Virus record (IMG/VR): IMGVR_UViG_643348546_000001
Direction: 5' to 3' (one strand)
Source: a virus
Lineage: Duplodnaviria; Heunggongvirae; Uroviricota; Caudoviricetes
DNA: 48,686 nucleotides
Shown here in pieces: positions 2,396-48,686 of this stretch. The stretch's first letter is position 1. Each line of letters starts with the position of its first letter. The notes under the pieces were generated by a model that worked only from the letters and a program-made list of their open reading frames with translations, searched no databases and was not told the origin of the DNA. The position numbers and the translations under genes are program-made.

Positions 2396-2418
2396 GGCTT
2401 CCCGCTTCTGGTCTGTCG

Positions 2419-17486: not shown

Positions 17487-17870
17487 ATGCGTGATATTCA
17501 GATGGTTCTTGAGCGTTGGGGAGCGTGGGCGGCTAATAATCATGAAGATGTGACCTGGTCGTCCATTGCCGCCGGTTTTAAGGGATTAATTACTTCAAAA
17601 GTAAAATCTCGCCCGCAATGTTGTGACGATGACGCTATGATCATTTGCGGGTGCATGGCCCGTCTGAAAAAGAACAACAGCGATTTGCACGATTTATTAG
17701 TAGATTATTATGTAGTCGGTATGACATTCATGTCACTGGCAGGTAAGCATTGCTGCTCTGATGGTTATATCGGGAAAAGGTTACAGAAGGCTGAGGGCAT
17801 AATTGAAGGGATGTTAATGGCATTAGATATCCGGTTAGAGATGGATATCGTTGTTAATAACTCTAATTAA
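17487..17870 (+). CDS. Q: Late-gene antiterminator Q (phage 82 / QuuD type)
   Basis: Start at the ATG at 17487; [26 protein letters not shown]... matches remembered DLP12 QuuD; cysteine-rich zinc-binding region. Confidence 0.9.
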
Positions 17871-18059
17871 TATGCCAATTGTTTACTAAAAATTATTAAA
17901 AATGGGGCGTTGAGACGCCCCCAAAAATAAAGGGTAATATATAACAGAAGGTTTATATAGTTAGAAGCAAGGTTGTGCTTCTAAAGGAAGTGGCTTGAGG
18001 GAGCCACTTATATGTTGGGGAGGCAATGCCTCCCGCAACATATCTTTTTCGTAATCAGA
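17871..18059 (+). promoter_or_regulatory. Late promoter / qut / tR' region with several hairpins
   Basis: Directly downstream of Q: hairpin GGGGCGT-TGAG-ACGCCCC (17903-17920), AGAAGCA..TGCTTCT, AGTGGCT..AGCCACT, and GGGAGGCA-A-TGCCTCCC (about 18020-18036) followed by a T-rich run; the first hairpin has a T-run on the minus strand and may also terminate the convergent porin gene. Confidence 0.5.
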
Positions 18060-19157
18060 TTAGAACTGGTAAACCAGACCTACAGCAACGATGTCATCAG
18101 TGCTTACACCGAGTGCTTTAGTGAAGTCATTTTTGTCAAGCAGGTTGATTTTGTAATCAACGAAAGTAGACATATTTTTGTTGAAGTAATAGGTTGCACC
18201 TACATCAACATATTTGACTAAGTCCTGATCGCCCCATACTCCAAGATCCTTACCTTTAGATTGCAGGTAAGCAACGGACGGACGCAGACCGAAATCGAAC
18301 TGATATTGTGCAACAGCTTCGAAGTTTTGGGCTTTATTAGCAACGAAGTGATCAGCAAATACAGTCATATTCTGGGTTTCAGAATAGGTAGTGGCCAGGT
18401 AAATGTTGTTAGCGTCATATTTCAGACCTGCGGCCCAAACTTCTGCATTTTTACCGGAAGCAAATACTTCAGGAAGAACTTTCCCTGCATTAACTTGAGT
18501 GTCGGTACGATCAGATTTTGCATAAGTTGCACCGATACCGAATCCTTCGTATTCATAGGTAGCAGAGAAACCGAAGCCATCACCGTTACCTTCGGTGTAG
18601 TTATCGAAATCGCTACGATCGTTTTTGCCTTGGTACTGAGCAGCAAAGTTCAGACCATCAACCAGGCCAAAGAAGTCGTTGTTACGATAGGTTGCAACAC
18701 CAGTGGTGCGACCAGTCATGAACACATCTGTTTGGGTCCAGGTATCGCCACCGAATTCTGGCAGAACGTCAGTCCACGCACCGATGTCGTATGCTACACC
18801 GTAGTTACGGCCGTAATCGATTGAGCCGTAGTCACCGAATTTCAGGCCTGCAAATGCAAGACGGGTTTTGTCTTTGGAGGAACCTTGAGATTCAGCGCGG
18901 TTGCCTTTGAATTCATATTCCCACTGACCGAAACCAGTCAGTTGATCGTTGATTTGGGTTTCACCTTTGAAGCCAAGACGGGCATAAGTAGTATCACCAT
19001 CATCTGCATCATTAGAGGAGAAGTAGTGCTTAGCATTAACTTTCCCGTACAGATCCAGCTTGTTACTGTCTTTATTATAAATTTCAGCTGCCTGAGCAGA
19101 CATCGCCATCAGTACTGATGCAGCTACAGCAGAAATTGCCACTGTTAATTTTTTCAT
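18060..19157 (-). CDS. nmpC: Outer-membrane general porin (OmpC/PhoE family; nmpC / phage Lc type)
   Basis: 365-aa ORF with signal peptide ([23 protein letters not shown]), AEIYNKD start of the mature protein, C-terminal aromatic VGLVYQF; lies between Q and the lysis genes on the opposite strand with an AT-rich promoter region 19158-19700. Confidence 0.92.
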
Positions 19158-32126: not shown

Positions 32127-32542
32127 GTTTTGCCCTGAAACTGGCGCGCGAGATGGGGCGACCCGACTGGCGTGCCATGCTTGCCGGGATGTCATCCACG
32201 GAGTATGCCGACTGGCACCGCTTTTACAGTACCCATTATTTTCATGATGTTCTGCTGGATATGCACTTTTCCGGGCTGACGTACACCGTGCTCAGCCTGT
32301 TTTTCAGCGATCCGGATATGCATCCGCTGGATTTCAGTCTGCTGAACCGGCGCGAGGCTGACGAAGAGCCTGAAGATGATGTGCTGATGCAGAAAGCGGC
32401 AGGGCTTGCCGGAGGCGTTCGTTTTGGCCCGGACGGGAATGAAGTTATCCCCGCTTCCCCGGATGTGGCGGACATGACGGAGGATGACGTAATGCTGATG
32501 ACAGTATCAGAAGGGATCGCAGGAGGAGTCCGGTATGGCTGA
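31704..32542 (+). CDS. GT: Tail assembly chaperone G-T fusion made by programmed -1 ribosomal frameshift
   Basis: Slippery heptamer GGGAAAG at 32102-32108 at the 3' end of G; the T frame (32108-32542) continues in -1 and matches the lambda gpT portion. Confidence 0.85.
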
Positions 32543-35114
32543 ACCGGTAGGCGATCTGGTCGTTGATTTAAGTCTGGATGCGGCCAGATTTGACGAGCAG
32601 ATGGCCAGAGTCAGGCGTCATTTTTCCGGTACGGAAACTGATGCGAAAAAAACAGCGGCAGTCGTTGAACAGTCGCTGGGCCGACAGGCGCTGGCTGCAC
32701 AGAAAGCGGGGATTTCCGTCGGGCAGTATAAAGCCGCCATGCGTATGCTGCCTGCACAGTTCACCGACGTGGCCACGCAGCTTGCAGGCGGGCAAAGTCC
32801 GTGGCTGATCCTGCTGCAACAGGGTGGTCAGGTTAAGGACTCCTTCGGCGGGATGATCCCCATGTTCAGGGGGCTTGCCGGTGCGATCACCCTGCCGATG
32901 GTGGGGGCCACCTCGCTGGCGGTGGCGACCGGTGCGCTGGCGTATGCCTGGTATCAGGGCAACTCAACCCTGTCCGATTTCAACAAAACGCTGGTCCTTT
33001 CCGGCAATCAGGCGGGACTGACGGCAGATCGTATTCTGGCCCTGTCCAGAGCCGGGCAGGCGGCAGGGCTGACGTTTAACCAGACCAGCGAGTCACTGAC
33101 GGCGCTGGTGAATGCCGGTGTGCGTGGTGGTGAGCAGTTTGAGGCGATCAGCCAGAGTGTGGCGCGTTTCTCCTCTGCATCCGGCGTGGAGGTGGACAAG
33201 GTCGCTGAAGCCTTCGGGAAGCTGACCACAGACCCGACGTCGGGACTGACAGCGATGGCACGTCAGTTCCATAACGTGACGGCGGAGCAGATTGCGTATG
33301 TTGCTCAGTTGCAGCGTTCCGGAGATGAAGCCGGGGCATTGCAGGCGGCGAACGAGGCCGCAACGAAAGGGTTTGATGACCAGACCCGCCGCCTGAAAGA
33401 GAACATGGGCACGCTGGAGACCTGGGCAGACAGGACAGCACGGGCATTCAAATCCATGTGGGATTCGGTGCTGGATATTGGTCGCCCGGACACTGCCCAG
33501 GGAATGCTGGAGAAAGCAGAAAAGGCTTTTGATGAGGCGGACAAAAAATGGCAGTGGTATCAGAGCCGAAGCCACCGGCGCGGTAAAACCTCAGCATTTC
33601 TTGCCAATCTCCGGGGAGCATGGGAGGACAGAGCGAATGCGCAACTTGGGCTTTCAGCCGCCACGTTGCAGGCCGATCTTGAAAAGGCCAGAGAGATGGC
33701 AGCAAAGGACTGGGCCGAGTCTGAGGCATCACGGCTGAAATATACCGAAGAGGCGCAGAAGGCTTACGAACGCCTGCAGACGCCGCTGGAGAAATATACC
33801 GCCCGTCAGGAAGAACTGAACAAGGCACTGAAAGACGGGAAAATCCTGCAGGCAGATTACAACACGCTGATGGCGGCGGCGAAAAAGGATTATGAAGCGA
33901 CGCTGAAAAAGCCGAAACAGTCCGGCGTGAAAGTGTCTGCGGGCGATCGTCAGGAAGACAGTGCTCATGCTGCCCTGCTGACGCTTCAGGCTGAACTCCG
34001 GACGCTGGAGAAGCATGCCGGAGCAAATGAGAAAATCAGCCAGCAGCGCCGGGATTTGTGGAAGGCGGAGAGTCAGTTCGCGGTACTGGAGGAGGCGGCG
34101 CAACGTCGCCAGCTGTCCGCACAGGAGAAATCCCTGCTGGCGCATAAAGATGAGACGCTGGAGTACAAACGCCAGCTGGCTGCACTTGGCGACAAGGTTA
34201 CGTATCAGGAGCGCCTGAACGCGCTGGCGCAGCAGGCGGATAAGTTCGCACAGCAACAACGGGCAAAACGGGCAGCCATTGAGGCGAAAAACCGGGGGCT
34301 TACTGACCGGCAGGCAGCGCGGGAAGCCACAGAACAGCGCCTGAAGGAACAGTATGGCGATAATTCGCTGGCGCTGAATAACGTCATGTCAGAGCAGAAA
34401 AAGACCTGGGCGGCTGAAGACCAGCTTCGCGGGAGCTGGATGGCAGGCCTCAGGTCCGGCTGGAGTGAGTGGGAAGAGAGCGCCACGGACAGTATGTCGC
34501 AGGTTAAAAGTGCAGCCACGCAGACCTTTGATGGTATTGCGCAGAATATGGCGGCGATGCTGACCGGCAGTGAGCAGAACTGGCGCAGCTTCACCCGTTC
34601 CGTGCTGTCCATGATGACAGAAATTCTGCTTAAGCAGGCAATGGTGGGGATTGTCGGGAGTATCGGTAGCGCCATTGGCGGGGCTGTTGGTGGCGGCGCA
34701 TCCGCATCAGGCGGTACAGCCATTCAGGCAGCTGCGGCGAAATTCCATTTTGCAACCGGAGGATTTACGGGAACCGGCGGCAAATATGAGCCAGCGGGGA
34801 TTGTTCACCGTGGTGAATTTGTCTTCACGAAGGAGGCAACCAGCCGAATTGGTGTCGGCAACCTGTACCGCCTGATGCGCGGCTATGCCACCGGCGGTTA
34901 TGTCGGTACACCGGGCAGCATGGCAGACAGCCGGTCGCAGGCGTCCGGGACGTTTGAGCAGAATAACCATGTGGTGATTAACAACGACGGCACGAACGGG
35001 CAGATAGGTCCGGCTGCTCTGAAGGCGGTGTATGACATGGCCCGCAAGGGTGCCCGTGATGAAATTCAGACACAGATGCGTGATGGTGGCCTGTTCTCCG
35101 GAGGTGGACGATGA
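32535..35114 (+). CDS. H: Tail tape-measure protein H
   Basis: 859-aa ORF in the lambda H position, lambda-like N-terminus and coiled-coil-rich centre. Confidence 0.96.
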   Translation: MAEPVGDLVVDLSLDAARFDEQMARVRRHFSGTETDAKKTAAVVEQSLGRQALAAQKAGISVGQYKAAMRMLPAQFTDVATQLAGGQSPWLILLQQGGQVKDSFGGMIPMFRGLAGAITLPMVGATSLAVATGALAYAWYQGNSTLSDFNKTLVLSGNQAGLTADRILALSRAGQAAGLTFNQTSESLTALVNAGVRGGEQFEAISQSVARFSSASGVEVDKVAEAFGKLTTDPTSGLTAMARQFHNVTAEQIAYVAQLQRSGDEAGALQAANEAATKGFDDQTRRLKENMGTLETWADRTARAFKSMWDSVLDIGRPDTAQGMLEKAEKAFDEADKKWQWYQSRSHRRGKTSAFLANLRGAWEDRANAQLGLSAATLQADLEKAREMAAKDWAESEASRLKYTEEAQKAYERLQTPLEKYTARQEELNKALKDGKILQADYNTLMAAAKKDYEATLKKPKQSGVKVSAGDRQEDSAHAALLTLQAELRTLEKHAGANEKISQQRRDLWKAESQFAVLEEAAQRRQLSAQEKSLLAHKDETLEYKRQLAALGDKVTYQERLNALAQQADKFAQQQRAKRAAIEAKNRGLTDRQAAREATEQRLKEQYGDNSLALNNVMSEQKKTWAAEDQLRGSWMAGLRSGWSEWEESATDSMSQVKSAATQTFDGIAQNMAAMLTGSEQNWRSFTRSVLSMMTEILLKQAMVGIVGSIGSAIGGAVGGGASASGGTAIQAAAAKFHFATGGFTGTGGKYEPAGIVHRGEFVFTKEATSRIGVGNLYRLMRGYATGGYVGTPGSMADSRSQASGTFEQNNHVVINNDGTNGQIGPAALKAVYDMARKGARDEIQTQMRDGGLFSGGGR

Positions 35115-35440
35115 AGACCTTCCGCTGGAAAGTGAAACCCGGTATGGATGTGGCTTCGGTCCCTTCTGTAAGAAAGGTGCGCTTTGGTGATGGCTATTCC
35201 CAGCGAGCGCCTGCCGGGCTGAATGCCAACCTGAAAACGTACAGCGTGACGCTTTCTGTCCCCCGTGAGGAGGCCACGGTACTGGAGTCGTTTCTGGAAG
35301 AGCACGGGGGCTGGAAATCCTTTCTGTGGACGCCGCCTTATGAGTGGCGGCAGATAAAGGTGACCTGCGCAAAATGGTCGTCGCGGGTCAGTATGCTGCG
35401 TGTTGAGTTCAGCGCAGAGTTTGAACAGGTGGTGAACTGA
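35111..35440 (+). CDS. M: Tail tip protein M
   Basis: 109-aa ORF matching lambda gpM. Confidence 0.95.
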   Translation: MKTFRWKVKPGMDVASVPSVRKVRFGDGYSQRAPAGLNANLKTYSVTLSVPREEATVLESFLEEHGGWKSFLWTPPYEWRQIKVTCAKWSSRVSMLRVEFSAEFEQVVN

Positions 35441-36138
35441 TGCAGGATATCCGGCAGGAAACACTGAATGAATGCACCCGTGCGGAGCAGTCGGCCAGCG
35501 TGGTGCTCTGGGAAATCGACCTGACAGAGGTCGGTGGAGAACGTTATTTTTTCTGTAATGAGCAGAACGAAAAAGGTGAGCCGGTCACCTGGCAGGGGCG
35601 ACAGTATCAGCCGTATCCCATTCAGGGGAGCGGTTTTGAACTGAATGGCAAAGGCACCAGTACGCGCCCCACGCTGACGGTTTCTAACCTGTACGGTATG
35701 GTCACCGGGATGGCGGAAGATATGCAGAGTCTGGTCGGCGGAACGGTGGTCCGGCGTAAGGTTTACGCCCGTTTTCTGGATGCGGTGAACTTCGTCAACG
35801 GAAACAGTTACGCCGATCCGGAGCAGGAGGTGATCAGCCGCTGGCGCATTGAGCAGTGCAGCGAACTGAGCGCGGTGAGTGCCTCCTTTGTACTGTCCAC
35901 GCCGACGGAAACGGATGGCGCTGTTTTTCCGGGACGTATCATGCTGGCCAACACCTGCACCTGGACCTATCGCGGTGACGAGTGCGGTTATAGCGGTCCG
36001 GCTGTCGCGGATGAATATGACCAGCCAACGTCCGATATCACGAAGGATAAATGCAGCAAATGCCTGAGCGGTTGTAAGTTCCGCAATAACGTCGGCAACT
36101 TTGGCGGCTTCCTTTCCATTAACAAACTTTCGCAGTAA
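35440..36138 (+). CDS. L: Tail tip protein L
   Basis: 232-aa ORF matching lambda gpL (C-terminal cysteine cluster). Confidence 0.95.
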   Translation: MQDIRQETLNECTRAEQSASVVLWEIDLTEVGGERYFFCNEQNEKGEPVTWQGRQYQPYPIQGSGFELNGKGTSTRPTLTVSNLYGMVTGMAEDMQSLVGGTVVRRKVYARFLDAVNFVNGNSYADPEQEVISRWRIEQCSELSAVSASFVLSTPTETDGAVFPGRIMLANTCTWTYRGDECGYSGPAVADEYDQPTSDITKDKCSKCLSGCKFRNNVGNFGGFLSINKLSQ

Positions 36139-36143
36139 ATCCC

Positions 36144-36887
36144 ATGACACAGACAGAATCAGCGATTCTGGCGCACGCCCGGCGATGTGCGCCAGCGGAG
36201 TCGTGCGGCTTCGTGGTAAGCACGCCGGAGGGGGAAAGATATTTTCCCTGCGTGAATATCTCCGGTGAGCCGGAGGCGTATTTCCGTATGTCGCCGGAAG
36301 ACTGGCTGCAGGCAGAAATGCAGGGTGAGATTGTGGCGCTGGTCCACAGCCACCCCGGTGGTCTGCCCTGGCTGAGTGAGGCCGACCGGCGGCTGCAGGT
36401 GCAGAGTGATTTGCCGTGGTGGCTGGTCTGCCGGGGGACGATTCATAAGTTCCGCTGTGTGCCGCATCTCACCGGGCGGCGCTTTGAGCACGGTGTGACG
36501 GACTGTTACACACTGTTCCGGGATGCTTATCATCTGGCGGGGATTGAGATGCCGGACTTTCATCGTGAGGATGACTGGTGGCGTAACGGCCAGAATCTCT
36601 ATCTGGATAATCTGGAGGCGACGGGGCTGTATCAGGTGCCGTTGTCAGCGGCACAGCCGGGCGATGTGCTGCTGTGCTGTTTTGGTTCATCAGTGCCGAA
36701 TCACGCCGCAATTTACTGCGGCGACGGCGAGCTGCTGCACCATATTCCTGAACAACTGAGCAAACGAGAGAGGTACACCGACAAATGGCAGCGACGCACA
36801 CACTCCCTCTGGCGTCACCGGGCATGGCGCGCATCTGCCTTTACGGGGATTTACAACGATTTGGTCGCCGCATCGACCTTCGTGTGA
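36144..36887 (+). CDS. K: Tail tip assembly protein K (JAB/MPN + NlpC/P60-like domains)
   Basis: 247-aa ORF matching lambda gpK; HSHPGG motif. Confidence 0.94.
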   Translation: MTQTESAILAHARRCAPAESCGFVVSTPEGERYFPCVNISGEPEAYFRMSPEDWLQAEMQGEIVALVHSHPGGLPWLSEADRRLQVQSDLPWWLVCRGTIHKFRCVPHLTGRRFEHGVTDCYTLFRDAYHLAGIEMPDFHREDDWWRNGQNLYLDNLEATGLYQVPLSAAQPGDVLLCCFGSSVPNHAAIYCGDGELLHHIPEQLSKRERYTDKWQRRTHSLWRHRAWRASAFTGIYNDLVAASTFV

Positions 36888-37456
36888 AAACGGGGGCTGA
36901 AGCCATCCGGGCACTGGCCACACAGCTCCCGGCGTTTCGTCAGAAACTGAGCGACGGCTGGTATCAGGTACGGATTGCCGGGCGGGACGTCAGCACGTCC
37001 GGGTTAACGGCGCAGTTACATGAGACTCTGCCTGATGGCGCTGTGATTCATATTGTTCCCAGAGTCGCCGGGGCCAAGTCAGGTGGCGTATTCCAGATTG
37101 TCCTGGGGGCTGCCGCCATTGCCGGATCATTCTTTACCGCCGGAGCCACCCTTGCAGCATGGGGGGCAGCCATTGGGGCCGGTGGTATGACCGGCATCCT
37201 GTTTTCTCTCGGTGCCAGTATGGTGCTCGGTGGTGTGGCGCAGATGCTGGCACCGAAAGCCAGAACTCCCCGTACACAGACAACGGATAACGGTAAGCAG
37301 AACACCTATTTCTCCTCACTGGATAACATGGTTGCCCAGGGCAATGTTCTGCCTGTTCTGTACGGGGAAATGCGCGTGGGGTCACGCGTGGTTTCTCAGG
37401 AGATCAGCACGGCAGACGAAGGGGACGGTGGTCAGGTTGTGGTGATTGGTCGCTGA
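36785..37456 (+). CDS. I: Tail tip assembly protein I
   Basis: 223-aa ORF matching lambda gpI; overlaps the end of K. Confidence 0.94.
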   Translation: MAATHTLPLASPGMARICLYGDLQRFGRRIDLRVKTGAEAIRALATQLPAFRQKLSDGWYQVRIAGRDVSTSGLTAQLHETLPDGAVIHIVPRVAGAKSGGVFQIVLGAAAIAGSFFTAGATLAAWGAAIGAGGMTGILFSLGASMVLGGVAQMLAPKARTPRTQTTDNGKQNTYFSSLDNMVAQGNVLPVLYGEMRVGSRVVSQEISTADEGDGGQVVVIGR

Positions 37457-37516: not shown

Positions 37517-40500
37517 ATGGGTAAAGGAAGCAGTAAGGGGCATACCCCGCGCGAAGCGAAGGACAACCTGAAGTCCACGCAGTTGCTGAGTGTGATCGAT
37601 GCCATCAGCGAAGGGCCGGTTGAAGGTCCGGTGGATGGATTAAAAAGCGTGCTGCTGAACAGTACGCCGGTGCTGGACACTGAGGGGAATACCAACATCT
37701 CCGGTGTCACGGTGGTGTTCCGTGCCGGTGAGCAGGAGCAGACACCGCCGGAGGGGTTTGAATCCTCCGGCTCCGAGACGGTGCTGGGTACGGAAGTGAA
37801 ATATGACACGCCGATCACCCGCACCATTACGTCTGCAAACATCGACCGTCTGCGCTTTACCTTCGGTGTACAGGCACTGGTGGAAACCACCTCAAAGGGT
37901 GACAGGAATCCGTCGGAAGTCCGTCTGCTGGTTCAGATACAACGTAACGGTGGCTGGGTGACGGAAAAAGACATCACCATTAAGGGCAAAACCACCTCGC
38001 AGTATCTGGCCTCGGTGGTGGTGGGTAGCCTGCCGCCGCGCCCGTTTAATATCCGGATGCGCAGGATGACGCCGGACAGCACCACAGACCAGCTGCAGAA
38101 CAAAACGCTCTGGTCGTCATACACCGAAATCATCGATGTGAAACAGTGCTACCCGAACACGGCACTGGTCGGCGTGCAGGTGGACTCGGAGCAGTTCGGC
38201 AGCCAGCAGGTGAGCCGTAATTATCATCTTCGCGGGCGCATTCTGCAGGTGCCGTCGAACTATAACCCGCAGACGCGGCAATACAGCGGTATCTGGGACG
38301 GAACGTTTAAGCCGGCATACAGCAACAACCCGGCCTGGTGTCTGTGGGATATGCTGACCCACCCGCGCTACGGCATGGGGAAACGTCTTGGTGCGGCGGA
38401 TGTGGATAAATGGGCGCTGTATGTCATCGGCCAGTACTGCGACCAGTCAGTGCCGGACGGTTTTGGCGGCACGGAGCCGCGCATCACCTGTAATGCCTAC
38501 CTGACCACGCAGCGTAAGGCGTGGGATGTGCTCAGTGATTTCTGCTCGGCGATGCGCTGTATGCCGGTATGGAACGGGCAGACGCTGACGTTCGTGCAGG
38601 ACCGACCATCAGATAAGGTGTGGACCTATAACCGCAGTAATGTGGTGATGCCGGATGATGGCGCGCCGTTCCGCTACAGCTTCAGCGCCCTGAAGGACCG
38701 CCATAATGCCGTTGAGGTGAACTGGATTGACCCGAACAACGGCTGGGAGACGGCGACAGAGCTTGTTGAAGATACGCAGGCCATTGCCCGTTACGGTCGT
38801 AATGTCACGAAGATGGATGCCTTTGGCTGTACCAGCCGGGGGCAGGCACACCGCGCCGGGCTGTGGCTGATTAAAACGGAACTGCTGGAGACGCAGACCG
38901 TGGATTTCAGCGTGGGTGCTGAAGGGCTTCGCCATGTACCGGGCGATGTCATTGAAATCTGCGATGATGACTATGCCGGTATCAGCACCGGTGGTCGCGT
39001 GCTGGCGGTGAACAGCCAGACCCGGACGCTGACGCTCGACCGTGAAATCACGCTGCCATCCTCCGGTACCACGCTGATAAGCCTGGTTGACGGAAGTGGT
39101 AATCCGGTCAGCGTGGAGGTTCAGCCCGTCACCGACGGACTTAAGGTGAAAGTGAACCGGGTTCCTGATGGCGTTGCAGAATACAGTGTGTGGGGGCTGA
39201 AGTTGCCGACGTTGCGTCAGCGCCTGTTCCGCTGTGTGAGTATCCGTGAGAACGATGACGGCACGTATGCCATCACTGCCGTGCAGCATGTACCGGAAAA
39301 AGAAGCCATCGTGGATAACGGGGCGCACTTTGACGGCGACCAGAGCAGCACGGTGAATGGTGTCACGCCGCCAGCGGTGCAGCACCTGACCGCCGAAGTC
39401 ACCGCAGACAGCGGGGAATATCAGGTGCTGGCGCGCTGGGACACGCCGAAGGTGGTGAAGGGCGTGAGCTTCCTGCTCCGTCTGACCGTAACAGCGGATG
39501 ACAGCAGTGAGCGGCTGGTCAGCACGGCCCGGACGACGGAAACCACATACCGCTTCACGCAACTGGCGCTGGGGAACTACAGGCTGACAGTCCGGGCGGT
39601 AAATGCGTGGGGGCAGCAGGGCGATCCGGCGTCGGTATCGTTCCGGATTGCCGCACCGGCAGCACCGTCGAGGATTGAGCTGACGCCGGGCTATTTTCAG
39701 ATAACCGCCACGCCGCATCTTGCCGTTTATGACCCGACGGTACAGTTTGAGTTCTGGTTCTCGGAAAAGCGGATTACCGATATCAGGCAGGTTGAAACCA
39801 CAGCACGCTATCTTGGCACGGCGCTGTACTGGATAGCCGCCAGTATCAATATCAAACCGGGCCATGATTATTACTTTTATATCCGCAGTGTGAACACCGT
39901 TGGCAAATCGGCATTCGTGGAGGCTGTTGGTCAGCCGAGTGATGATGCATCCGGTTATCTGGATTTTTTCAAAGGCGAGATAGGGAAAACCCATCTGGCT
40001 CAGGAGCTGTGGACGCAGATTGATAACGGTCAGCTTGCGCCTGACCTGGCTGAAATCAGGACGTCCATTACGGATGTCAGCAATGAAATCACGCAGACCG
40101 TCAATAAGAAACTGGAAGACCAGAGTGCGGCAATTCAGCAGATACAGAAGGTTCAGGTTGATACAAATAATAACCTGAACAGCATGTGGGCTGTGAAGCT
40201 GCAGCAGATGCAGGACGGACGCCTTTATATCGCGGGTATTGGTGCCGGTATTGAGAACACCCCTGACGGCATGCAGAGTCAGGTGCTGCTGGCGGCAGAC
40301 AGGATTGCGATGATTAATCCTGCGAATGGCAACACAAAGCCGATGTTTGTTGGGCAGGGCGATCAGATATTCATGAACGAAGTGTTCCTGAAACGCCTGA
40401 CGGCTCCCACCATTACCAGCGGCGGTAATCCTCCGGTATTTTCCCTGACACCGGACGGGCGGCTGACGGCGAAAAATGCCGATATCAGCGGTAACGTGAA

Positions 40501-40996
40501 TGCGAACTCCGGGACGCTCAACAACGTCACGATTAACGAGAACTGTCGGGTTCTGGGAAAACTGTCCGCGAACCAGATTGAAGGCGATCTCGTTAAAACA
40601 GTGGGCAAAGCTTTCCCCCGGGACTCCCGTGCACCGGAGCGGTGGCCATCAGGGACCATTACCGTCAGGGTTTATGACGATCAGCCGTTTGACCGGCAGA
40701 TTGTTATTCCCGCGGTGGCGTTTCGTGGCGCTAAACATGAGCGGGAGAATAACGATATTTATTCGTCATGCCGTCTGATAGTGAAGAAAAACGGTGCTGA
40801 AATTTATAACCGTACCGCGCTGGATAATACGCTGGTTTATACAGGTGTTATTGATATGCCTGCTGGTCGCGGTCACATGACGCTGGAGTTTTCGGTATCA
40901 GCGTGGCTGGTAAATGACTGGTATCCCACAGCCAGTATCAGCGATTTGCTGGTTGTGGTGATGAAGAAATCCACAGCAGGTATCACGATTAGCTGA
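37517..40996 (+). CDS. J: Central tail fibre / host-specificity protein J (divergent C-terminal receptor-binding region)
   Basis: 1159-aa ORF; lambda J-like over most of its length but longer than lambda J (1132 aa), and the last about 150 aa do not match the remembered lambda J C-terminus. Confidence 0.95.
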
Positions 40997-41064: not shown

Positions 41065-41664
41065 ATGCGTAAACTTTATGCCGCCATTTTGTCCGCAGCC
41101 ATCTGTCTGGCCGTATCCGGTGCGCCTGCATGGGCGTCTGAACATCAGTCCACGCTGAGCGCGGGCTATCTTCGTGCCCGTACGAACGCTCCCGGCAGCG
41201 ATAATCTGAACGGGATTAACGTGAAATACCGTTATGAGTTTACGGACACGCTGGGGCTGATTACGTCATTCAGTTATGCCAACGCTGAAGATGAGCAAAA
41301 AACGCATTACAGCGATACCCGCTGGCATGAGGATTCCGTGCGTAACCGCTGGTTCAGCGTGATGGCGGGACCGTCTGTGCGCGTGAATGAATGGTTCAGC
41401 GCGTATGCGATGGCGGGTGTGGCTTACAGCCGTGTGTCGACTTTCTCCGGGGATTATCTCCGCGTAACTGACAACAAGGGGAAAACGCATGATGTGCTGA
41501 CCGGAAGTGATGACGGTCACCACAGCAACACGTCTCTGGCGTGGGGAGCTGGCGTGCAGTTTAACCCGACCGAATCGGTGGCCATTGATGTCGCTTATGA
41601 AGGCTCCGGCAGTGGTGACTGGCGCACTGACGGTTTCATCGTGGGTGTCGGTTATAAATTCTGA
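41065..41664 (+). CDS. lom: Outer-membrane protein Lom (Ail/Lom family)
   Basis: 199-aa ORF with signal peptide, near-identical to lambda Lom. Confidence 0.95.
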   Translation: MRKLYAAILSAAICLAVSGAPAWASEHQSTLSAGYLRARTNAPGSDNLNGINVKYRYEFTDTLGLITSFSYANAEDEQKTHYSDTRWHEDSVRNRWFSVMAGPSVRVNEWFSAYAMAGVAYSRVSTFSGDYLRVTDNKGKTHDVLTGSDDGHHSNTSLAWGAGVQFNPTESVAIDVAYEGSGSGDWRTDGFIVGVGYKF

Positions 41665-41722: not shown

Positions 41723-44700
41723 GTGAATATGGCAGTAAAGATTTCAGGTGTACTGAAAGACGGTGCAGGTAAACCGGTACAGAACTGCACAATCCAGCTG
41801 AAAGCAAAACGTAACAGCACCACGGTGGTGGTGAACACGGTGGCATCTGAAAATCCGGATGAAGCAGGGCGTTACAGCATGGACGTTGAGCACGGCCAGT
41901 ACAGCGTTATTCTGTTGGTGGAGGGATTCCCGCCGTCACATGCCGGGACCATCACCGTGTATGAAGATTCTCAACCGGGTACGCTGAATGATTTTCTCGG
42001 TGCCATGACGGAGGATGATGCCCGTCCTGAGGCACTGCGCCGTTTTGAACTGATGGTGGAAGAGGTGGCGCGTAACGCGTCCGCAGTGGCACAGAACACG
42101 GCAGCCGCGAAGAAGTCAGCCAGCGATGCCGGCACATCAGCACGTGAGGCGGCAACCCATGCGACTGATGCTGCAGGCTCAGCACGCGCAGCCAGCACGT
42201 CAGCCGGACAGGCCGCTTCGTCGGCTCAGTCAGCGTCTTCCAGCGCAGGAACGGCATCAACAAAGGCTACTGAAGCATCAAAAAGTGCTGCCGCTGCAGA
42301 GTCCTCAAAAAGCGCGGCGGCCACCAGTGCCGGTGCGGCGAAAACGTCAGAAACGAATGCTGCAGTGTCACAAAAATCTGCAGCTACTTCTGCATCCACC
42401 GCGACCACGAAAGCGTCAGAAGCTGCCACCTCAGCCCGGGATGCGGCGGCCTCAAAAGAGGTAGCGAAATCATCAGAAACGAACGCATCATCAAGTGCCA
42501 GTAGTGCAGCTTCCTCGGCAACGGCGGCAGGAAATTCCGCGAAGGCCGCAAAAACGTCTGAGACGAATGCGGATAACAGCGCACAGGCGGCAGCAGACTC
42601 ACAAACTGCATCGGCAAACTCCGCGACAGCAGCCAAAAAATCAGAAACCAACGCGAAAAATAGCGAGGCAGCAGCAAAGAGCAGCGAAACCAACGCTAAA
42701 GCCAGCGAAACTAATGCTAAATCCAGTGAAACAAACGCGGCGAAATCTGCGGCGGACGCACTTAATTATCGCAACCAGGCCCAGGGTATTGTTGGTACTA
42801 ACATCGGTTTGGGATCATCACCGCGTGATTGCTCTGACATCTCAGGAAATCCATCAGGTTATATTGGCTTTATGCGCATCATGGCTGATGCAACAGGTTT
42901 CCCGTCTATTGCATCCGGTGAAAGCAGTCTTACGGGGTTTATTAGTCAGGTAGATGGAACTCCAGCGTATACAGGTGTATTTCAGGGATGGACTACTCGC
43001 TCGCTTTATACCTATCGCTGGAGTCCGACAACAGGCCCGCAATGGACACGCCACGCAAGAAAAGATGAGGTTATCCGATTTCAGCGTTCAAGCAACACAA
43101 GAACTGTCATTTTATCTACTGACGTTCAGGCTGACGGCTGTTACTTACAGGTTGATGCTGACGGTCAGTGGGGCGCGTTTAACCCTAAAGCTGGTAGATG
43201 GCAACCGCTCGCAGTTGCACAAGGTGGCACAGGGGCGAATGATGCAAGTACAGCGCGCTCTAAACTTGAAGTCATGTTTGAAGCAAAAACTGGCCTTGAT
43301 GCGAATACGAACTTAAACGATATAAAAGGTACTACAGCCGGTTTTTATTACCAACCAATGTCTGCCAACGCAAAGCCAGAACTAAATTACCCGATACAGC
43401 TTGCGGGTGCACTGATGGTTTTAAAGGACGGGGCTAATGTTGGGTACTCATGTATTCAGATTTATTATGTATACAATAACCCAAGAATCTCATATAGCCG
43501 TACATACAATGGTGGTTCTGACACATGGTCAGACTGGGTGAAAAATGTATCAACTGAAAGGGTTGATGATTGGACTAGCGAAACATGGATATATAACCAT
43601 GATAAATCCATGCGCCTGGGTTTAACCGGATCAACGTGGGGGTGTTACAGCGACACACAAAAAAAATGGATACCGCTTGATGTTTCTCATGGTGGTACTG
43701 GTGCGGCAACTGTTGATGGTGTCAGAACGAATCTTGGCTTAGGTAGGAACAACAGCCCTCAACTTAACAGTCTATTTCTTGATAGATATAGTGATTCGAC
43801 CAATACATACACATCTAGTGGAATTCTCCATACAAGACTGTTAGCAACTGACAGCACTGTGCGTCTTGGTGCTGATATGTATGTTGAAACTTTATCAAAT
43901 GAGCCAGGTCAATTAACAATAAGGTTTACATACGATGGTTCAACTGGTGCTTCAAAATATCTAAACCTTAACTCAGAAGGTAATTTAATTGTAGATAGTG
44001 CGATACTGAAATCAACGGTTGAAAAACCTTTACAAATAAGGAGCGCTAACCCAGCAATAAGATTTAATGAAACAGATCGCCCGGCTAACACGCCTACTTA
44101 TACTCTCATTGCTAATGCTGGCGACTGGTTTATTCAGAAACGCGATTATGATGATGCCGGAAGCGTTAGTAACGCAATTGCATATAATTTCGCAAACGAC
44201 AGAATTGATGTGCAAAATCTTAAAGCGTCTGGGTTAATTACAGCTAACTCAGGAATCGCAACATTAACAGGTCATGACTGGAACGCTCAGCATACTGATA
44301 ACGTCGACAAATTTAGACCAATTGCAGGCAGTACAAACGGCCCGGCAGGCTCTATGGTTCTTGGCGGCATTCATGTTCAATTTAGTAAAAATTATGCTGT
44401 GCAGTTCGGAGGCCGCAATTCCGGTTTTTGGGGAAGAACAATTGAAAATGGAACGACGCAGGAATGGAAGAAATTACTAACAGTAGACGATCTCAATTCA
44501 TCTACCGCTCTTGCTGTCAGGTCATTAACCACATCTAACCCGATAAAATCTGGCGGAGGGCGGATTGATGTCCTTGGAAGCACGTCAGACTATAGCAAAA
44601 TGGATTGCTTTGTACGTGGGTTTGATAGCACCGGTAATTCTCTCGCGTGGGCGTTGGGTTCATCAGTCGGCGTAAGTAAGATGCTGTCGCTAAAAAATTT

Positions 44701-45484
44701 CTTTAGCGGAGCTGAGATACTGCTAAATGGTAATGACGGCGCGGTTCAACTCAAAACAGGTGCTGTTAACGGTGCTAAAGCGCAGGCGCTCACTATCAAC
44801 AAGGATGAGGTTAACTCAACTGTTGATTTAACTCTTACAAAACAAACAGGGACTGGAAATCGTTTTGTTTTACAGAACTTAGGTAATACAGAACTATCAT
44901 TTGCCGCAAAAGTATGGGGATCAAGTGATCGACAAAACGTTTTTGAGGTTGGAACGTCTGCTGCGTATCTGTTTTATGCGCAAAAAACGTCAGCAGGCCA
45001 GTTGTTTGATGTAAATGGCGCTATTAATTGCACAACGCTGAATCAGTCATCAGACCGCGACCTTAAAGACGATATTCTCGTTATCAGCGACGCGACGAAA
45101 GCAATCCGTAAAATGAACGGATACACCTACACGCTCAGGGAAAACGGGATGCCTTATGCTGGCGTTATTGCACAGGAAGTAATGGAGGCGATACCAGAAG
45201 CTGTGGGATCGTTTACTCATTATGGTGAAGAGTTGCAAGGTCCGACCGTTGACGGCAACGAGCTACGCGAAGAAACTCGCTATCTTAATGTTGACTACTC
45301 CGCCGTGACGGGTTTACTTGTTCAGGTCGCCCGTGAAACAGATGATCGCGTTACCGCGCTGGAAGAGGAAAACACAACGCTACGTCAAAATCTGGCAACA
45401 GCAGGCACCCGGATCAGCACTCTGGAAAATCAGGTAAGCGAACTGGTTGCACTTGTCCGGCAGTTAACAGGAAGCGAACATTGA
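41723..45484 (+). CDS. stf: Side tail fibre protein Stf with C-terminal intramolecular-chaperone (peptidase S74-like) domain
   Basis: 1253-aa ORF; N-terminal about 130 aa match lambda Stf (MAVKISGVLKDGAGKPVQNCTIQLKA...); long Ala/Ser/Thr-rich KxSETNA repeat region; C-terminal SDRDLKDDI...GYTYTL...LEEENTTLRQ resembles self-cleaving chaperone domains of endosialidase / L-shaped tail fibres. Confidence 0.88.
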   Translation: MNMAVKISGVLKDGAGKPVQNCTIQLKAKRNSTTVVVNTVASENPDEAGRYSMDVEHGQYSVILLVEGFPPSHAGTITVYEDSQPGTLNDFLGAMTEDDARPEALRRFELMVEEVARNASAVAQNTAAAKKSASDAGTSAREAATHATDAAGSARAASTSAGQAASSAQSASSSAGTASTKATEASKSAAAAESSKSAAATSAGAAKTSETNAAVSQKSAATSASTATTKASEAATSARDAAASKEVAKSSETNASSSASSAASSATAAGNSAKAAKTSETNADNSAQAAADSQTASANSATAAKKSETNAKNSEAAAKSSETNAKASETNAKSSETNAAKSAADALNYRNQAQGIVGTNIGLGSSPRDCSDISGNPSGYIGFMRIMADATGFPSIASGESSLTGFISQVDGTPAYTGVFQGWTTRSLYTYRWSPTTGPQWTRHARKDEVIRFQRSSNTRTVILSTDVQADGCYLQVDADGQWGAFNPKAGRWQPLAVAQGGTGANDASTARSKLEVMFEAKTGLDANTNLNDIKGTTAGFYYQPMSANAKPELNYPIQLAGALMVLKDGANVGYSCIQIYYVYNNPRISYSRTYNGGSDTWSDWVKNVSTERVDDWTSETWIYNHDKSMRLGLTGSTWGCYSDTQKKWIPLDVSHGGTGAATVDGVRTNLGLGRNNSPQLNSLFLDRYSDSTNTYTSSGILHTRLLATDSTVRLGADMYVETLSNEPGQLTIRFTYDGSTGASKYLNLNSEGNLIVDSAILKSTVEKPLQIRSANPAIRFNETDRPANTPTYTLIANAGDWFIQKRDYDDAGSVSNAIAYNFANDRIDVQNLKASGLITANSGIATLTGHDWNAQHTDNVDKFRPIAGSTNGPAGSMVLGGIHVQFSKNYAVQFGGRNSGFWGRTIENGTTQEWKKLLTVDDLNSSTALAVRSLTTSNPIKSGGGRIDVLGSTSDYSKMDCFVRGFDSTGNSLAWALGSSVGVSKMLSLKNFFSGAEILLNGNDGAVQLKTGAVNGAKAQALTINKDEVNSTVDLTLTKQTGTGNRFVLQNLGNTELSFAAKVWGSSDRQNVFEVGTSAAYLFYAQKTSAGQLFDVNGAINCTTLNQSSDRDLKDDILVISDATKAIRKMNGYTYTLRENGMPYAGVIAQEVMEAIPEAVGSFTHYGEELQGPTVDGNELREETRYLNVDYSAVTGLLVQVARETDDRVTALEEENTTLRQNLATAGTRISTLENQVSELVALVRQLTGSEH

Positions 45485-45760
45485 TATCCTTCAAGCCCTG
45501 AAGGAGGCTGTTCCTGGTACGTTCAGACTGTTGCTGAGCTGGAGATCGCAACGGAGGAAGAGACATCGTTACTGACGGCATGGAAGACATATCGGGTGTT
45601 GCTGAACAGTGTTGATACATCAGTAGCACCGGATATTGAATGGCCAGTAGCACCTATAGGGTAAATTCGTAATGATTACCTAAATACGTTATTCTTTTGT
45701 TAAAAAAGTGATTTTGCTATAGGTAGGGAGTATGTTCTTGGATTAAGAATAAAAAATCGC

Positions 45761-45790
45761 CATGAAAGAGCTTCATGGCGAGTACATAAA
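45761..45790 (-). terminator. Putative intrinsic terminator (minus strand)
   Basis: 9-bp stem CGCCATGAA / TTCATGGCG with a 5-nt loop, followed on the minus strand by ATTTTTTATT. Confidence 0.4.
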
Positions 45791-46524
45791 CGTACAAAAT
45801 GTGATGAAAGTAGAGTGGCGTAAGCCACAATATTAAGATATGACAATAGCGAAGAAAAGTAAATAACATTTTATGGACGTTTAATTGTTAATTATAAAAA
45901 CTAGAGTGCCCGATATTGTTTATCTTGCTTTAAAATAATGTACTCAAACCAAATTTTTGAGCTAAAAGCTCAAATAATATAAATGCAATGATAATGTTTA
46001 ATAAGACAATTAGCTTGCTTTGTATTTTCATTTCGGAATACTGTTAAGTAACTTTGATGATCCTAACAATAGATCGGAATTTTCTTAGAGTCAATGGTCA
46101 CTGTTTTTGCTTGCAAAGCAAATGTTTTGGTGGTTATAAGTTGTCTTAATATAGTCACGCATGCAACTTGTTCCATGCGGAGATTAAAGATTGGAATATA
46201 ACGCGAAGATGGAATTAAATTACATTTGCAATAATCAATTTATTATTACTCAATAATTACCGATATTATTATTGTAAATTAATCATTAGAGTGCAAAAAG
46301 AAATGTAACGGCAAAATAAGAGGACGATAGCTGAGAAAAAAGCGTGCTTTCCCAATCTGGGGCAAATCACGTCTGAATGACACCTGAAAACAGGTGGTAG
46401 CCTCAAGAAGGCTTGGAATATTCTTCTTTAATGTTATGTAATTCATTGATTTTTCGTGTACAATTTTAAGACATTTATTCCAAGAGAAATTTTTAACTCT
46501 TTGATTTTTCGACTCTGTATCATC

Positions 46525-46585
46525 GGTCTCGAAAACCGGAGTAGGGGCAACTCTACCGGGGGGTCAAATCCCCCTCTCTCCGCCA
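46525..46585 (+). other. 3' segment (about 61 nt, anticodon stem to CCA-proximal end) of a tRNA-Ser gene, with one T-loop substitution; probable integration-site remnant
   Basis: GGTCTCGAAAACCGGAGTAGGGGCAACTCTACCGGGGGGTCAAATCCCCCTCTCTCCGCCA matches the remembered 3' two-thirds of E. coli serU (CGA anticodon) except GGGGGTTCAAATC to GGGGGGTCAAATC; the 5' acceptor/D-arm is absent. Confidence 0.7.
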
Positions 46586-47169
46586 CTTTATCAATGACTT
46601 ATCTCCCGACTTCCCGCCTTGCTTTTCCTAAACAGAACAATCGTAGAATATTCTTGAAGGGTTAGATCGTCACTGTTTTCTGTTCGATACTGTGACATTC
46701 AGCACTTGATTCGCTATGGATCTGACAGGAAGGTTTTGAGCGAAAATTTGCAGTTATTCAGTCGTTTTCTTATCGGTCACCATTATTCTTTTAGACATTG
46801 ATCCTACAAAGCTGCCGCAAAGTTGGTGGTGGGAACTGAAGTTGCGTAGAGAAGGGGTCAATACCCGGAGGCAAACATGGGCTGGCAAAAGTGTAGCGGT
46901 ATTAGGCGCAGCTATTTAGCCTAGTTATGTTTTATGAAAACTTGATATCATATAAGTGTCTTACTTATTGGCTGTAAATAAGTTTTTCCTAAGGAATTGT
47001 TTCTTGAGTATCATTTGTAACTGTAACGGAATTTATAATCCTTTGCTTTATTGTTACGGTATTTTTTATTACACCCTATTTTTTATGTGGTTTTTTATAC
47101 TGACGTTTGGCAAAGTGAACTTTATATGCATATACTTCATCCTGGTTTCAGTTAAGTTGGGTGGATGAT

Positions 47170-47913
47170 ATGGCAACTACATGTTCAGTTATATTGATTT
47201 TGGAGTCCTTTGATGTTTATTTCGGAAAAGAGAGTGTGTTTCTGGAGAGAGGTTCATCTGTACTTGTCGACTCTAGCTCTAGAGATTTTTTCCTGACATA
47301 TCCTGAAAGAGTGATAGTGGCGGATTTTGGCGCTGAGTTTATTAGTCGCTATTTGAAAGCTAATAACTTAAGGGATATTTCTGATTGTAGGGAATATCCA
47401 TCTTATTTAAAAATAAACTTTGCTGACTTCAGTTTAATTAAAGGATTAATTAGTTGGGCTAATCACTGTGCTGAATACATAGAAATTTTTGATGAGTCTA
47501 TTGCTTTTACATGTCTCTCTGCATTTTCTTCTGAAAAACAATTTGGAGTATTTCTGTTTGAATGTTTGAAAAGCACAGAGGCTAAAGTTAAAACGATTAT
47601 TCATACGGATTTATCTGCACCATGGCGTCTTAAGGATATATCATCAAGATTATATCTCAGCGAAAGTTTACTAAAGAGGAAATTGAAAGAAGAGGGGGTA
47701 TCATTCAGTAAGATCATACTTGATGAAAGGATGCAAATGGCTGAATATTTACTCAGCACTCGTTGTTATCCTATTAGTAAAGTAGCTAAGGTCTGTGGTT
47801 ATGCCAGTGTCTCATACTTTACTTATGTATTTAGACGTTATTTTGGTGTTTCTCCAAGTCAATACTCTCAGAGGAGTTCAGAAAGTAAAATTCTTACTCA
47901 CCAGGGAATCTGA
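47170..47913 (+). CDS. AraC/XylS-family transcriptional regulator (AppY/EnvY-like; AT-rich, horizontally acquired)
   Basis: ORF 47161-47913, ATG at 47170 preferred (GGTGGA RBS); C-terminal double HTH typical of AraC family (SKVAKVCGYASVSYFTYVFRRYFGVSPSQY); AT-rich codon usage. Confidence 0.85.
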   Translation: MATTCSVILILESFDVYFGKESVFLERGSSVLVDSSSRDFFLTYPERVIVADFGAEFISRYLKANNLRDISDCREYPSYLKINFADFSLIKGLISWANHCAEYIEIFDESIAFTCLSAFSSEKQFGVFLFECLKSTEAKVKTIIHTDLSAPWRLKDISSRLYLSESLLKRKLKEEGVSFSKIILDERMQMAEYLLSTRCYPISKVAKVCGYASVSYFTYVFRRYFGVSPSQYSQRSSESKILTHQGI

Positions 47914-47954
47914 TCATTGTTCTTGCCCCCTTATTTCCAGACAGGGGGTGTATC

Positions 47955-48420
47955 TTAAGTTAACGTTACCCGCTGACGTCGATATTCTCGCGGAGAGCGA
48001 TAACCCAACGCACTGTGCGGATGGTTTTCATTGTAATGATCGATCGCCACTGCAAGATTATGCAATGCCGTTCTTACATTCGGTTTCGGCATGAACGCGA
48101 TGTAGTCTTCCTTCATCGTTTTCACGAACCTTTCTGCCATTCCATTACTCTGAGGACTGCTGATTGCCGTTGTGCAGGGCTCCAGATTCAACTCTCTGGC
48201 GAACTGCCATGTTTCATGCGCTCTATACGCTGAACCGTTATCTGTCAGCCACTGGATGGACTGTTCCGGTACTTTATCGCCAAAGCGTTTTTCTATCGCT
48301 CCTAACATGACATCCTGCACTGTCGCTTTATCGTAACCTCCCGTGCTTGCGGCCCAGTCTATGGCTTCACGATCGCAACAGTCCAGGGCGAACGTAACAC
48401 GCAGTTTTGAATCGCCACGG
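47955..48420 (-). pseudogene. 5'-truncated IS3-family (IS2-group-like) transposase OrfB fragment
   Basis: C-terminal DDE-domain segment ([14 protein letters not shown]...[11 protein letters not shown]...[14 protein letters not shown]) resembles remembered IS2 InsD; similarity continues upstream of the first Met to about 48420 with no start codon. Confidence 0.75.
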
Positions 48421-48464
48421 GTTTAACAGACACCTCAGAGTCATTTAAGATGGCTTAAAGAGAG

Positions 48465-48686
48465 GTGCCCATGAGCGGTAAGCGTTATCCCGAAGAGTTT
48501 AAAACTGAAGCAGTCAAACAGGTTGTTGATCGCGGTTATTCTGTTGCCAGCGTTGCAACACGTCTCGATATCACCACCCACAGCCTTTATGCCTGGATAA
48601 AGAAGTACGGTCCGGATTACTCCACTTTTTCATCAAGCCAATCCGCCCACCACTGCATCATTTCTCTGCGCTTATCGAGATACTGA
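48465..48686 (+). pseudogene. IS3-family transposase OrfA, probably disrupted after about 50 codons
   Basis: N-terminal HTH region MSGKRYPEEFKTEAVKQVVDRGYSVASVATRLDITTHSLYAWIKKYGPD is typical of IS3-family OrfA; the remaining about 20 residues are atypical and end at the window edge. Confidence 0.6.

What the first reader, a model, noticed from the sequence alone, without database searches (positions are those of the whole stretch)
40540..40996. Divergent C-terminal receptor-binding region of J
Seen: J is lambda-like through most of its length but is 27 residues longer, and its last about 150 residues (…[22 protein letters not shown]… to …[10 protein letters not shown]) do not match the lambda J C-terminus I recall. 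Established: the J C-terminus determines receptor choice (LamB for lambda). Inference: this phage probably uses a different outer-membrane receptor.
Basis: partly seen in the sequence, partly recalled or inferred. Interest (0 to 1): 0.4.

Follow-up and report, generated by a model that had tools for sequence, protein, structure and literature searches.

The report
Common OmpC-type lambda J tail tip
The tail-tip protein J of this lambda-like prophage ends in a very common, already characterised variant of the receptor-binding domain that most likely binds the porin OmpC instead of lambda's LamB, so the finding is real but ordinary.

Summary
J (37517-40996, 1159 aa) is 97.6% identical to lambda J over aa 1-808. 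Its last 154 aa are only 44% identical, yet they are colinear and have the same fold (Pfam Ig_GpJ_C E 9e-39; Foldseek TM about 0.8 to solved lambda and A8 gpJ tips).

Two corrections:
- The 27 extra residues are not in the C-terminus. They come from a 28-aa insertion in the alpha-helical shaft (aa 836-866), minus one residue in the tip.
- Divergence starts at aa ~816, not ~1007. The distal third is three swapped modules: shaft, beta-prism and tip.

The tip is about 94% identical to the tail of the engineered chimera gpJ-1A2. That chimera delivers DNA through OmpC in lamB-deleted cells and recognises 20 of 23 natural OmpC variants, but not K-12's. More distant tip classes:
- A8/phi330, 65%: OmpC, with a solved complex (9wcb).
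- phi21, 69%: LamB.
- lambda, 44%: LamB.
- 434, 41%: OmpC.

So "a different receptor" is supported, most likely OmpC (about 0.8). This is inferred by homology, not tested on this protein.

Tip DNA of at least 80% identity occurs in 3496 of 5426 complete E. coli genomes. I rate it already known and of low interest.

The parts
37517..40996 (+). Gene J (tail tip / central tail fibre protein), 1159 aa, intact
   Evidence: ORF list and translation. Pfam FNIII-A_GpJ, Phage-tail_3, Ig_J, Ig_J_second, Phage_Tail_Tip and Ig_GpJ_C in lambda order. 84% identical overall to lambda J.
37517..39940 (+). Lambda-type hub and FNIII part of J (aa 1-808)
   Evidence: 97.6% aa and 97-100% nt identity to lambda J.
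39962..40213 (+). Alpha-helical shaft module (aa 816-899) with a 28-aa insertion relative to lambda at aa 836-866 (nt 40022-40114). This insertion is the source of the extra length.
   Evidence: 27% identity to lambda with 28 gap positions. Over the whole aa 790-1010 alignment (shaft plus prism) it is 100% identical to vB_EcoS-640R1 and 97% to phi21, while lambda and 434 share the short form. Shaft boundaries in lambda (aa 809-861) are from PMC11101478.
40214..40531 (+). Beta-prism (central straight fibre) module, aa 900-1005
   Evidence: 76% identical to lambda. Over the aa 790-1010 alignment it is phi21/640R1-type (97-100%). Pfam Phage_Tail_Tip aa 872-1000.
40478..40546 (+). Conserved junction [23 protein letters not shown] (aa 988-1010) between prism and tip; likely recombination point
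   Evidence: About 60 nt are nearly identical in window, phi21, 640R1 and Stx2a_2499 and well conserved in lambda. Stx2a_2499 differs upstream and matches downstream; phi21 does the reverse. It contains the point where the reconstructed 1A2 chimera changes from lambda to donor sequence (after ADISG).
40532..40993 (+).
   Evidence: Pfam PF12421 Ig_GpJ_C aa 1029-1159, E 9.4e-39. Identities: about 94% to 1A2, 94-95% to Stx2a_2499 and 640R1, 69% phi21, 65% A8, 44% lambda, 41% 434. AF2 model pLDDT 80.8. Foldseek TM 0.78-0.82 to 9wca, 9wcb, 8xck and 8xcj.
40721..40759 (+). Variable hairpin 1 of the tip (aa 1069-1081, [13 protein letters not shown])
   Evidence: Most variable stretch among 16 natural tips at least 88% identical. 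Loop between strands in the model. Aligns with the phi330 hairpin E953-S962 that an AlphaFold3 model predicts to point into the OmpC barrel (PMC12502783). Five of the 10 differences from 1A2 are here.
40907..40933 (+). Variable hairpin 2 of the tip (aa 1131-1139, LVNDWYPTA)
   Evidence: Second variability hot spot. Loop 127-138 of the model. Aligns with the phi330 hairpin A1015-P1020 predicted to contact the OmpC rim. Carries an indel relative to lambda.
41065..41664 (+). lom (Ail/Lom outer-membrane protein), context gene downstream of J
   Evidence: Pfam Ail_Lom E 5e-125. Only about 60-70% nt identity to lambda lom, so the diverged block continues past J.
41723..45484 (+). Side tail fibre gene (stf), 1253 aa; second host-range determinant
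   Evidence: Pfam phage_tail_N E 7e-72 and Peptidase_S74 intramolecular chaperone at aa 1110-1161.

Best explanation
The distal third of J is a recombinant cassette on a lambda-type tail hub. It has a long (phi21-type) alpha-helical shaft and beta-prism, followed by an Ig-like receptor-binding tip of the '1A2' class.

As in lambda, three tips at the end of the central fibre dock their bottom loops onto a trimeric porin, and binding triggers opening of the tail. Here the porin is most likely OmpC rather than LamB.

Two hairpins (aa 1069-1081 and 1131-1139) probably set which OmpC alleles are accepted. K-12-type OmpC may not be one of them.

What is shown: the domain architecture, the mosaic boundaries, the fold, and the class membership by sequence. 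What is inferred: that this exact tip binds OmpC, and which loops make the contacts.
For: 1. The tip is about 94% identical (9-10 differences in 154 aa) to the tail of gpJ-1A2, reconstructed from the published DNA.
2. 1A2 particles were selected on a lamB-deleted strain. In a lamB ompC double deletion they deliver to more than 75% of cells at the highest MOI tested for 20 of 23 plasmid-borne OmpC variants, including EDL933 OmpC (98%), but about 2% with MG1655 OmpC. They reach only 5% on wild-type MG1655, where wild-type lambda gives 98% (PMC11338833).
3. The next class, A8/phi330 (65%), also uses OmpC. phi330 fails on an ompC deletion and is rescued by complementation. Its tip is A8-type. PDB 9wcb is the A8 gpJ-OmpC complex.
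4. The fold and family are those of the lambda tip, so the docking mechanism described for lambda-LamB should carry over.
5. Variation within the class is concentrated in the loops that align with the predicted OmpC-contact hairpins of phi330.
6. Context: the same prophage carries an intact nmpC-type porin gene. The DNA at its 3' end differs at one base in 211 from K-12 DLP12, where the OmpC-repressing sRNA IpeX is made. This fits a phage that removes its own receptor from lysogens.
Against: - No experiment exists on this exact sequence.
- The 1A2 sequence had to be rebuilt from a machine-read PDF with frameshifting errors, so the count of 9-10 differences is approximate. F1069L in particular is uncertain.
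- Six of the differences (aa 1069, 1070, 1076, 1078, 1079, 1134) lie in or next to the two putative contact hairpins.
- In this protein family one to four substitutions can add or change a porin receptor: phi21 goes from LamB to OmpC with one mutation.
- The phi21 class, 69% identical to this tip and 81% identical to OmpC-using A8, natively uses LamB. Receptor therefore does not track overall similarity at that distance.
- The contact loops come from an AlphaFold3 prediction for phi330, not from inspection of 9wcb.
Confidence: 0.8

Rival explanations
1. The tip still uses LamB, as in lambda and phi21; the divergence reflects drift or adaptation to LamB variants.
For: phi21, whose tip is 69% identical and whose shaft and prism are 97% identical to this J, natively uses LamB. 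Lambda-family tips can switch among LamB, OmpC and OmpF with few mutations.
Against: The 94%-identical 1A2 tip works in lamB-deleted cells and fails on wild-type MG1655, which carries a LamB that lambda uses efficiently. The tip is much closer to 1A2 (94%) than to phi21 (69%).
Confidence: 0.05
2. The tip binds a different or broader set of porins than 1A2, for example OmpF, a phage-type porin, or OmpC plus a second receptor, because its contact hairpins differ from 1A2.
For: Six of about 10 differences from 1A2 are in or beside the two hypervariable hairpins. Gifsy-1 J binds OmpC, OmpX and BtuB. Evolved phi21 uses three porins.
Against: All natural members at least 88% identical keep the same scaffold and loop lengths. 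Nothing in the data points to a particular non-OmpC target. 1A2 itself already accepts 20 of 23 OmpC alleles.
Confidence: 0.12
3. The J allele is a relic in a defective prophage and has no current receptor function.
For: An IS3-family element sits in the early-left region and IS fragments at the right end. Many database relatives of the tip are fragments or frameshifted.
Against: J is a full-length open frame with every lambda J domain. The ORF list shows long + strand frames in the lambda tail-gene order (859 aa at 32535-35114, then 35111-37456, J, lom, stf), though only J, lom and stf were scanned against Pfam. The DNA of the gene's last 1.2 kb plus lom is 92-97% identical to that of isolated, plaque-forming phages (640R1, PhiR46_1, PhiR55_1).
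Confidence: 0.03

Closest known systems
gpJ-1A2, an engineered lambda gpJ chimera (Brodel et al., Nature 2024, PMC11338833); natural donors of the same class include J of VT1-Sakai, Stx2a_2499 and vB_EcoS-640R1
   Same: Tip about 94% identical (94-95% for the natural phage J proteins). Same conserved junction motif, and same loop lengths. OmpC is the published receptor for 1A2.
   Different: 9-10 substitutions, most of them in the two variable hairpins. 1A2 sits on lambda's short shaft, whereas this J has the long phi21-type shaft and prism. No direct test on this sequence.
gpJ-A8 / phage phi330 J (OmpC; PDB 9wca, 9wcb; PMC12502783)
   Same: Same Ig-like tip fold (Foldseek TM 0.78-0.79). Same C-terminal strand ...[17 protein letters not shown](S/T)IS. 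Uses OmpC.
   Different: 65% identical. Hairpin 1 is five residues longer in A8/phi330 and the first loop is four residues shorter. A8 accepts K-12 OmpC, whereas the 1A2 class does not.
Phage phi21 J (native receptor LamB)
   Same: Shaft and prism 97% identical, including the 28-aa insertion. Total length 1160 against 1159 aa.
   Different: Tip only 69% identical, and the receptor is LamB unless mutated.
Phage lambda J (LamB; PDB 8xcj, 8xck, 8iyk)
   Same: aa 1-808 97.6% identical. Same domain order. Same tip fold (TM 0.80-0.82).
   Different: Shaft 28 aa shorter. Tip 44% identical, with indels in four loops. Receptor is LamB.
Phage 434 J (OmpC)
   Same: Lambda-family J with an Ig-like tip that uses OmpC.
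   Different: Tip 41% identical. It is a separate class that reached OmpC with different loops, and it has the short lambda-type shaft.

Membership tests
Lambda gpJ tip attachment protein family | Full domain series: hub domains, two FNIII/Ig domains, helical shaft, beta-prism, C-terminal Ig-like tip | tested here: met
   Pfam FNIII-A_GpJ, Phage-tail_3, Ig_J, Ig_J_second, Phage_Tail_Tip and Ig_GpJ_C all match above their cut-offs, in order. 84% identity to lambda J.
Lambda gpJ tip attachment protein family | Position in the tail gene cluster: after L, K and I, before lom and stf | tested here: inconclusive
   ORFs of 232, 247 and 223 aa lie upstream (35440-37456), in the positions and close to the sizes of lambda L, K and I, but I did not scan them against any library. 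Downstream, lom and stf were confirmed by Pfam. The order is the same as in lambda, phi21, 434 and 640R1.
Ig_GpJ_C receptor-binding domain (PF12421) | Sequence match to the family profile over its full length | tested here: met
   E 9.4e-39, 133 bits against a cut-off of 26.2, profile positions 1-135 of 135, aa 1029-1159.
Ig_GpJ_C receptor-binding domain (PF12421) | Beta-sandwich fold superposable on solved gpJ tips | tested here: met
   AF2 model pLDDT 80.8 with nine strands. Foldseek top four hits are 9wca, 9wcb, 8xck and 8xcj, with TM 0.78-0.82.
1A2-class (OmpC-binding) tips | At least 90% identity to the 1A2 tail with the same loop lengths | tested here: met
   About 94%, no indels. The caveat is that 1A2 was rebuilt from machine-read DNA.
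1A2-class (OmpC-binding) tips | Infection or delivery depends on OmpC and not on LamB | not testable with these tools
   Published for 1A2 only. Needs adsorption or plaque assays with this tip.
Lambda-class (LamB-binding) tips | High identity to the lambda tip, including its four bottom loops | tested here: not met
   44% identity, with indels in four loops.

The most novel reading that the evidence does not exclude
The substitutions that separate this tip from 1A2 sit largely in two hypervariable hairpins. These may encode a different OmpC-allele range, or an extra porin. If so, the hairpins across the thousands of E. coli prophage copies would form a readable specificity code that tracks host OmpC loop variation.
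Probability: 0.3. Interest if true: 0.35.

Novelty: already known. Interest (0 to 1): 0.15.

Why it matters
It matters little as a discovery. Swapping of the J tip is the textbook way lambdoid phages change receptor. This allele is among the commonest in E. coli prophages, and its class has already been exploited to retarget lambda particles to OmpC.

It has practical value for annotation:
- This phage should be expected to need OmpC of a non-K-12 type, so it may not plaque on K-12 indicator strains.
- Its host range will also depend on the long side fibre.
- The conserved ADISG...NENC junction is the natural cut point for tip exchange.

Tried and rejected
- The idea that the 27 extra residues belong to the tip is rejected. 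They are a 28-aa shaft insertion, minus one tip residue.
- The idea that the C-terminus is unrelated to lambda's is rejected.
- I looked for a paper giving receptors for the PhiR/mEp temperate-phage panel whose genomes resemble this window. I found only its use in a defence study, with no receptor data.
- The receptor-prediction preprint 10.64898/2026.04.02.716166 does not cover lambdoid J tips.
- Rfam has no IpeX model, and the only Rfam hit in the window is an IS frameshift element. I compared the porin 3' region with K-12 DLP12 directly instead.
- The distal 853 aa of Stf gave no informative match to a solved structure.
- Loci fetched by hit id were not visible to Python, so those comparisons were done with the alignment tools.
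- The word-indexed protein search returned mostly fragments, some frameshifted. I used only the members at least 88% identical for the variability map.
- The source-data sheet for Extended Data Fig. 2 of PMC11338833 shows identical numbers in panels B and C. I relied on the Extended Data Fig. 1 sheet instead.

Full report
**What is there**

The ORF at 37517..40996 on the + strand encodes a 1159-aa protein. It carries the whole lambda J domain series: FNIII-A_GpJ, Phage-tail_3, two Ig_J domains, Phage_Tail_Tip and Ig_GpJ_C. Three ORFs in the positions and close to the sizes of lambda L, K and I lie upstream (not scanned against Pfam). It is followed by lom (41065-41664) and a 1253-aa side tail fibre gene (41723-45484), both confirmed by Pfam. 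Lambda J, fetched from NC_001416, has 1132 aa.

**How it differs from lambda**

A full alignment gives 84% identity overall, but the differences are strongly localised:

| J segment | aa | Identity to lambda J (aa) |
|---|---|---|
| Hub and FNIII part | 1-808 | 97.6% (97-100% at nt level) |
| Alpha-helical shaft | 816-899 | 27%, with a 28-aa insertion at aa 836-866 |
| Beta-prism | 900-1005 | 76% |
| Tip | 1006-1159 | 44% |

Nucleotide identity stays near 60% into lom. By the domain map of the lambda tail-fibre structure paper, the insertion lies in the alpha-helical shaft (lambda residues 809-861) (PMC11101478). The extra length is thus a shaft feature. The last 154 aa are colinear with lambda's and one residue shorter.

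**The modules assort independently**

- Over the shaft-plus-prism alignment (aa 790-1010), the window is 100% identical to phage vB_EcoS-640R1 and 97% to phi21. Lambda and 434 share the short form, and Stx2a_2499 has a third allele.
- In the tip the grouping changes. The window, 640R1 and Stx2a_2499 are 94-97% alike, while phi21 falls to 69%.
- The switch happens at a stretch of about 60 nt encoding [23 protein letters not shown] (40478-40546). This stretch is almost invariant across all these phages.
- It contains the point where the published 1A2 chimera changes from lambda to donor sequence (after ADISG).
- It is therefore a natural recombination joint for exchanging the tip.

**The tip is a genuine member of the lambda tip family**

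- It matches Pfam PF12421 over the full profile at E 9.4e-39.
- An AlphaFold2 model (pLDDT 80.8, nine strands) finds four top structural matches at TM 0.78-0.82: the closed and open A8 gpJ tips (9wca, 9wcb) and the closed and open lambda tips (8xck, 8xcj).

**Which receptor**

Receptor data exist for five tip classes:

| Tip class | Identity to this tip | Receptor | Source |
|---|---|---|---|
| gpJ-1A2 | about 94% | OmpC (not K-12's allele) | |
| phi21 | 69% | LamB natively; one mutation adds OmpC | |
| A8 / phi330 | 65% | OmpC | |
| lambda | 44% | LamB | |
| 434 | 41% | OmpC | |

- *A8 / phi330.* A8 delivers through OmpC in lamB-deleted cells. It has a solved complex with EDL933 OmpC (9wcb). 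The natural phage phi330, whose tip I found to be A8-type, fails on an ompC deletion and is rescued by complementation.
- *gpJ-1A2.* I rebuilt its C-terminal sequence from the DNA printed in the supplement of PMC11338833. I stitched the reading frames across machine-reading errors. It differs from the window tip at 9-10 of 154 positions, with no indels.
- *1A2 function.* In a lamB ompC double deletion, 1A2 particles deliver to more than 75% of cells at the highest MOI tested for 20 of 23 OmpC variants. With EDL933 OmpC the figure is 98%. With MG1655 OmpC and two other variants it is about 1-2%. On wild-type MG1655 they reach 5%, where wild-type lambda reaches 98%.

The closest characterised relative therefore uses OmpC, does not use K-12 LamB, and is selective among OmpC alleles. 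On this basis I put the probability that this J binds OmpC at about 0.8.

**Where specificity probably sits**

Sixteen natural tips are at least 88% identical to the window's. Their variation is concentrated at aa 1069-1081, around 1118-1122, and at 1131-1136. The first and third of these are loops in the model. They carry indels between classes. They also align with the two phi330 hairpins that an AlphaFold3 model places in the OmpC barrel and on its rim. Six of the roughly ten differences from 1A2 fall in or beside these hairpins. The OmpC-allele range of this tip may therefore not be identical to that of 1A2. This is inference; I could not inspect the contacts in 9wcb.

**How common it is**

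- Tip DNA of at least 80% identity is present in 3496 of 5426 complete E. coli genomes, with a median of two copies. Most best matches fall in the 90-95% band, and there are 62 records at 99% or more.
- Among sequenced phages, 57 of 243 records with a J-type tip are at least 90% identical at the protein level. They include Stx1 and Stx2 converting phages.
- The window itself resembles the PhiR/mEp lambdoid phages over its early and head regions. It is laid out in prophage order, starting at a lambda-type integrase.

**Context that fits an OmpC receptor**

- The prophage carries an intact 365-aa porin gene (18060-19157, minus strand). It lies between a quuD-type antiterminator and the lysis genes, the same place as nmpC in K-12 DLP12.
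- The 211 nt across its 3' end differ from DLP12 at one base. That is the place from which the sRNA IpeX, a repressor of OmpC synthesis, is reported to be processed.
- A phage that enters through OmpC and replaces OmpC in its lysogens would exclude its own kind. From memory, this is what was described for phage PA-2 and its Lc porin; I did not verify that reference here.

**Verdict**

The feature is an ordinary and widespread allele of a well-understood modular protein, and its class has already been characterised and engineered. Interest is low.

Noticed in passing
window 17860-19157 (minus strand): Intact 365-aa porin gene (Porin_1 E 1e-156; closest solved relatives are OmpC and OmpK36). It sits between a quuD-type Q gene and the lysis genes, like nmpC in K-12 DLP12. 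The 211 nt at its 3' end differ from DLP12 at one base; this is where the OmpC-repressing sRNA IpeX is reported to be made. Possible receptor replacement in lysogens.
   Followed up: partly
window 41723-45484 (+): Side tail fibre gene of 1253 aa (lambda's intact Stf is much shorter). It has a phage_tail_N domain, a long Ala/Ser-rich repeat region, and a Peptidase_S74 self-cleaving chaperone at aa 1110-1161. GC falls to 0.38-0.43 in the distal half. No informative match to a solved structure for the distal 853 aa.
   Followed up: partly
window 40022-40114 (+): 28-aa insertion in the alpha-helical shaft of J relative to lambda and 434. It is shared with phi21 and 640R1. This shaft is the element that flips and partly refolds on receptor binding in lambda, so a longer shaft may change fibre length or triggering.
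   Followed up: partly
window 1562-2452 (minus strand): IS3-family insertion sequence in the early-left region next to int: an rve-domain transposase ORF (1562-2395) and an IS1222-type ribosomal frameshift element (2335-2452, 156.6 bits).
   Followed up: partly
window 45500-48686: The right end is low-GC DNA (31-41%) with an AraC-family regulator ORF (47161-47913). It is followed by IS3-family transposase fragments (47955-48320 minus, 48465-48686 plus). This is likely cargo or flanking DNA rather than core phage genes.
   Followed up: partly
window 1-1071 (minus strand): The window begins exactly at the stop codon of a 356-aa lambda-type integrase (Arm-DNA-bind_1 plus Phage_integrase). The window is therefore a prophage in integrated gene order (int ... 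J-lom-stf), not a cos-to-cos genome.
   Followed up: partly
window 39137-39226 (+): Short dip to 82% nt identity with lambda inside the otherwise 97-100% identical part of J (aa 541-570). It may be a small patch of separate recombination.
   Followed up: no
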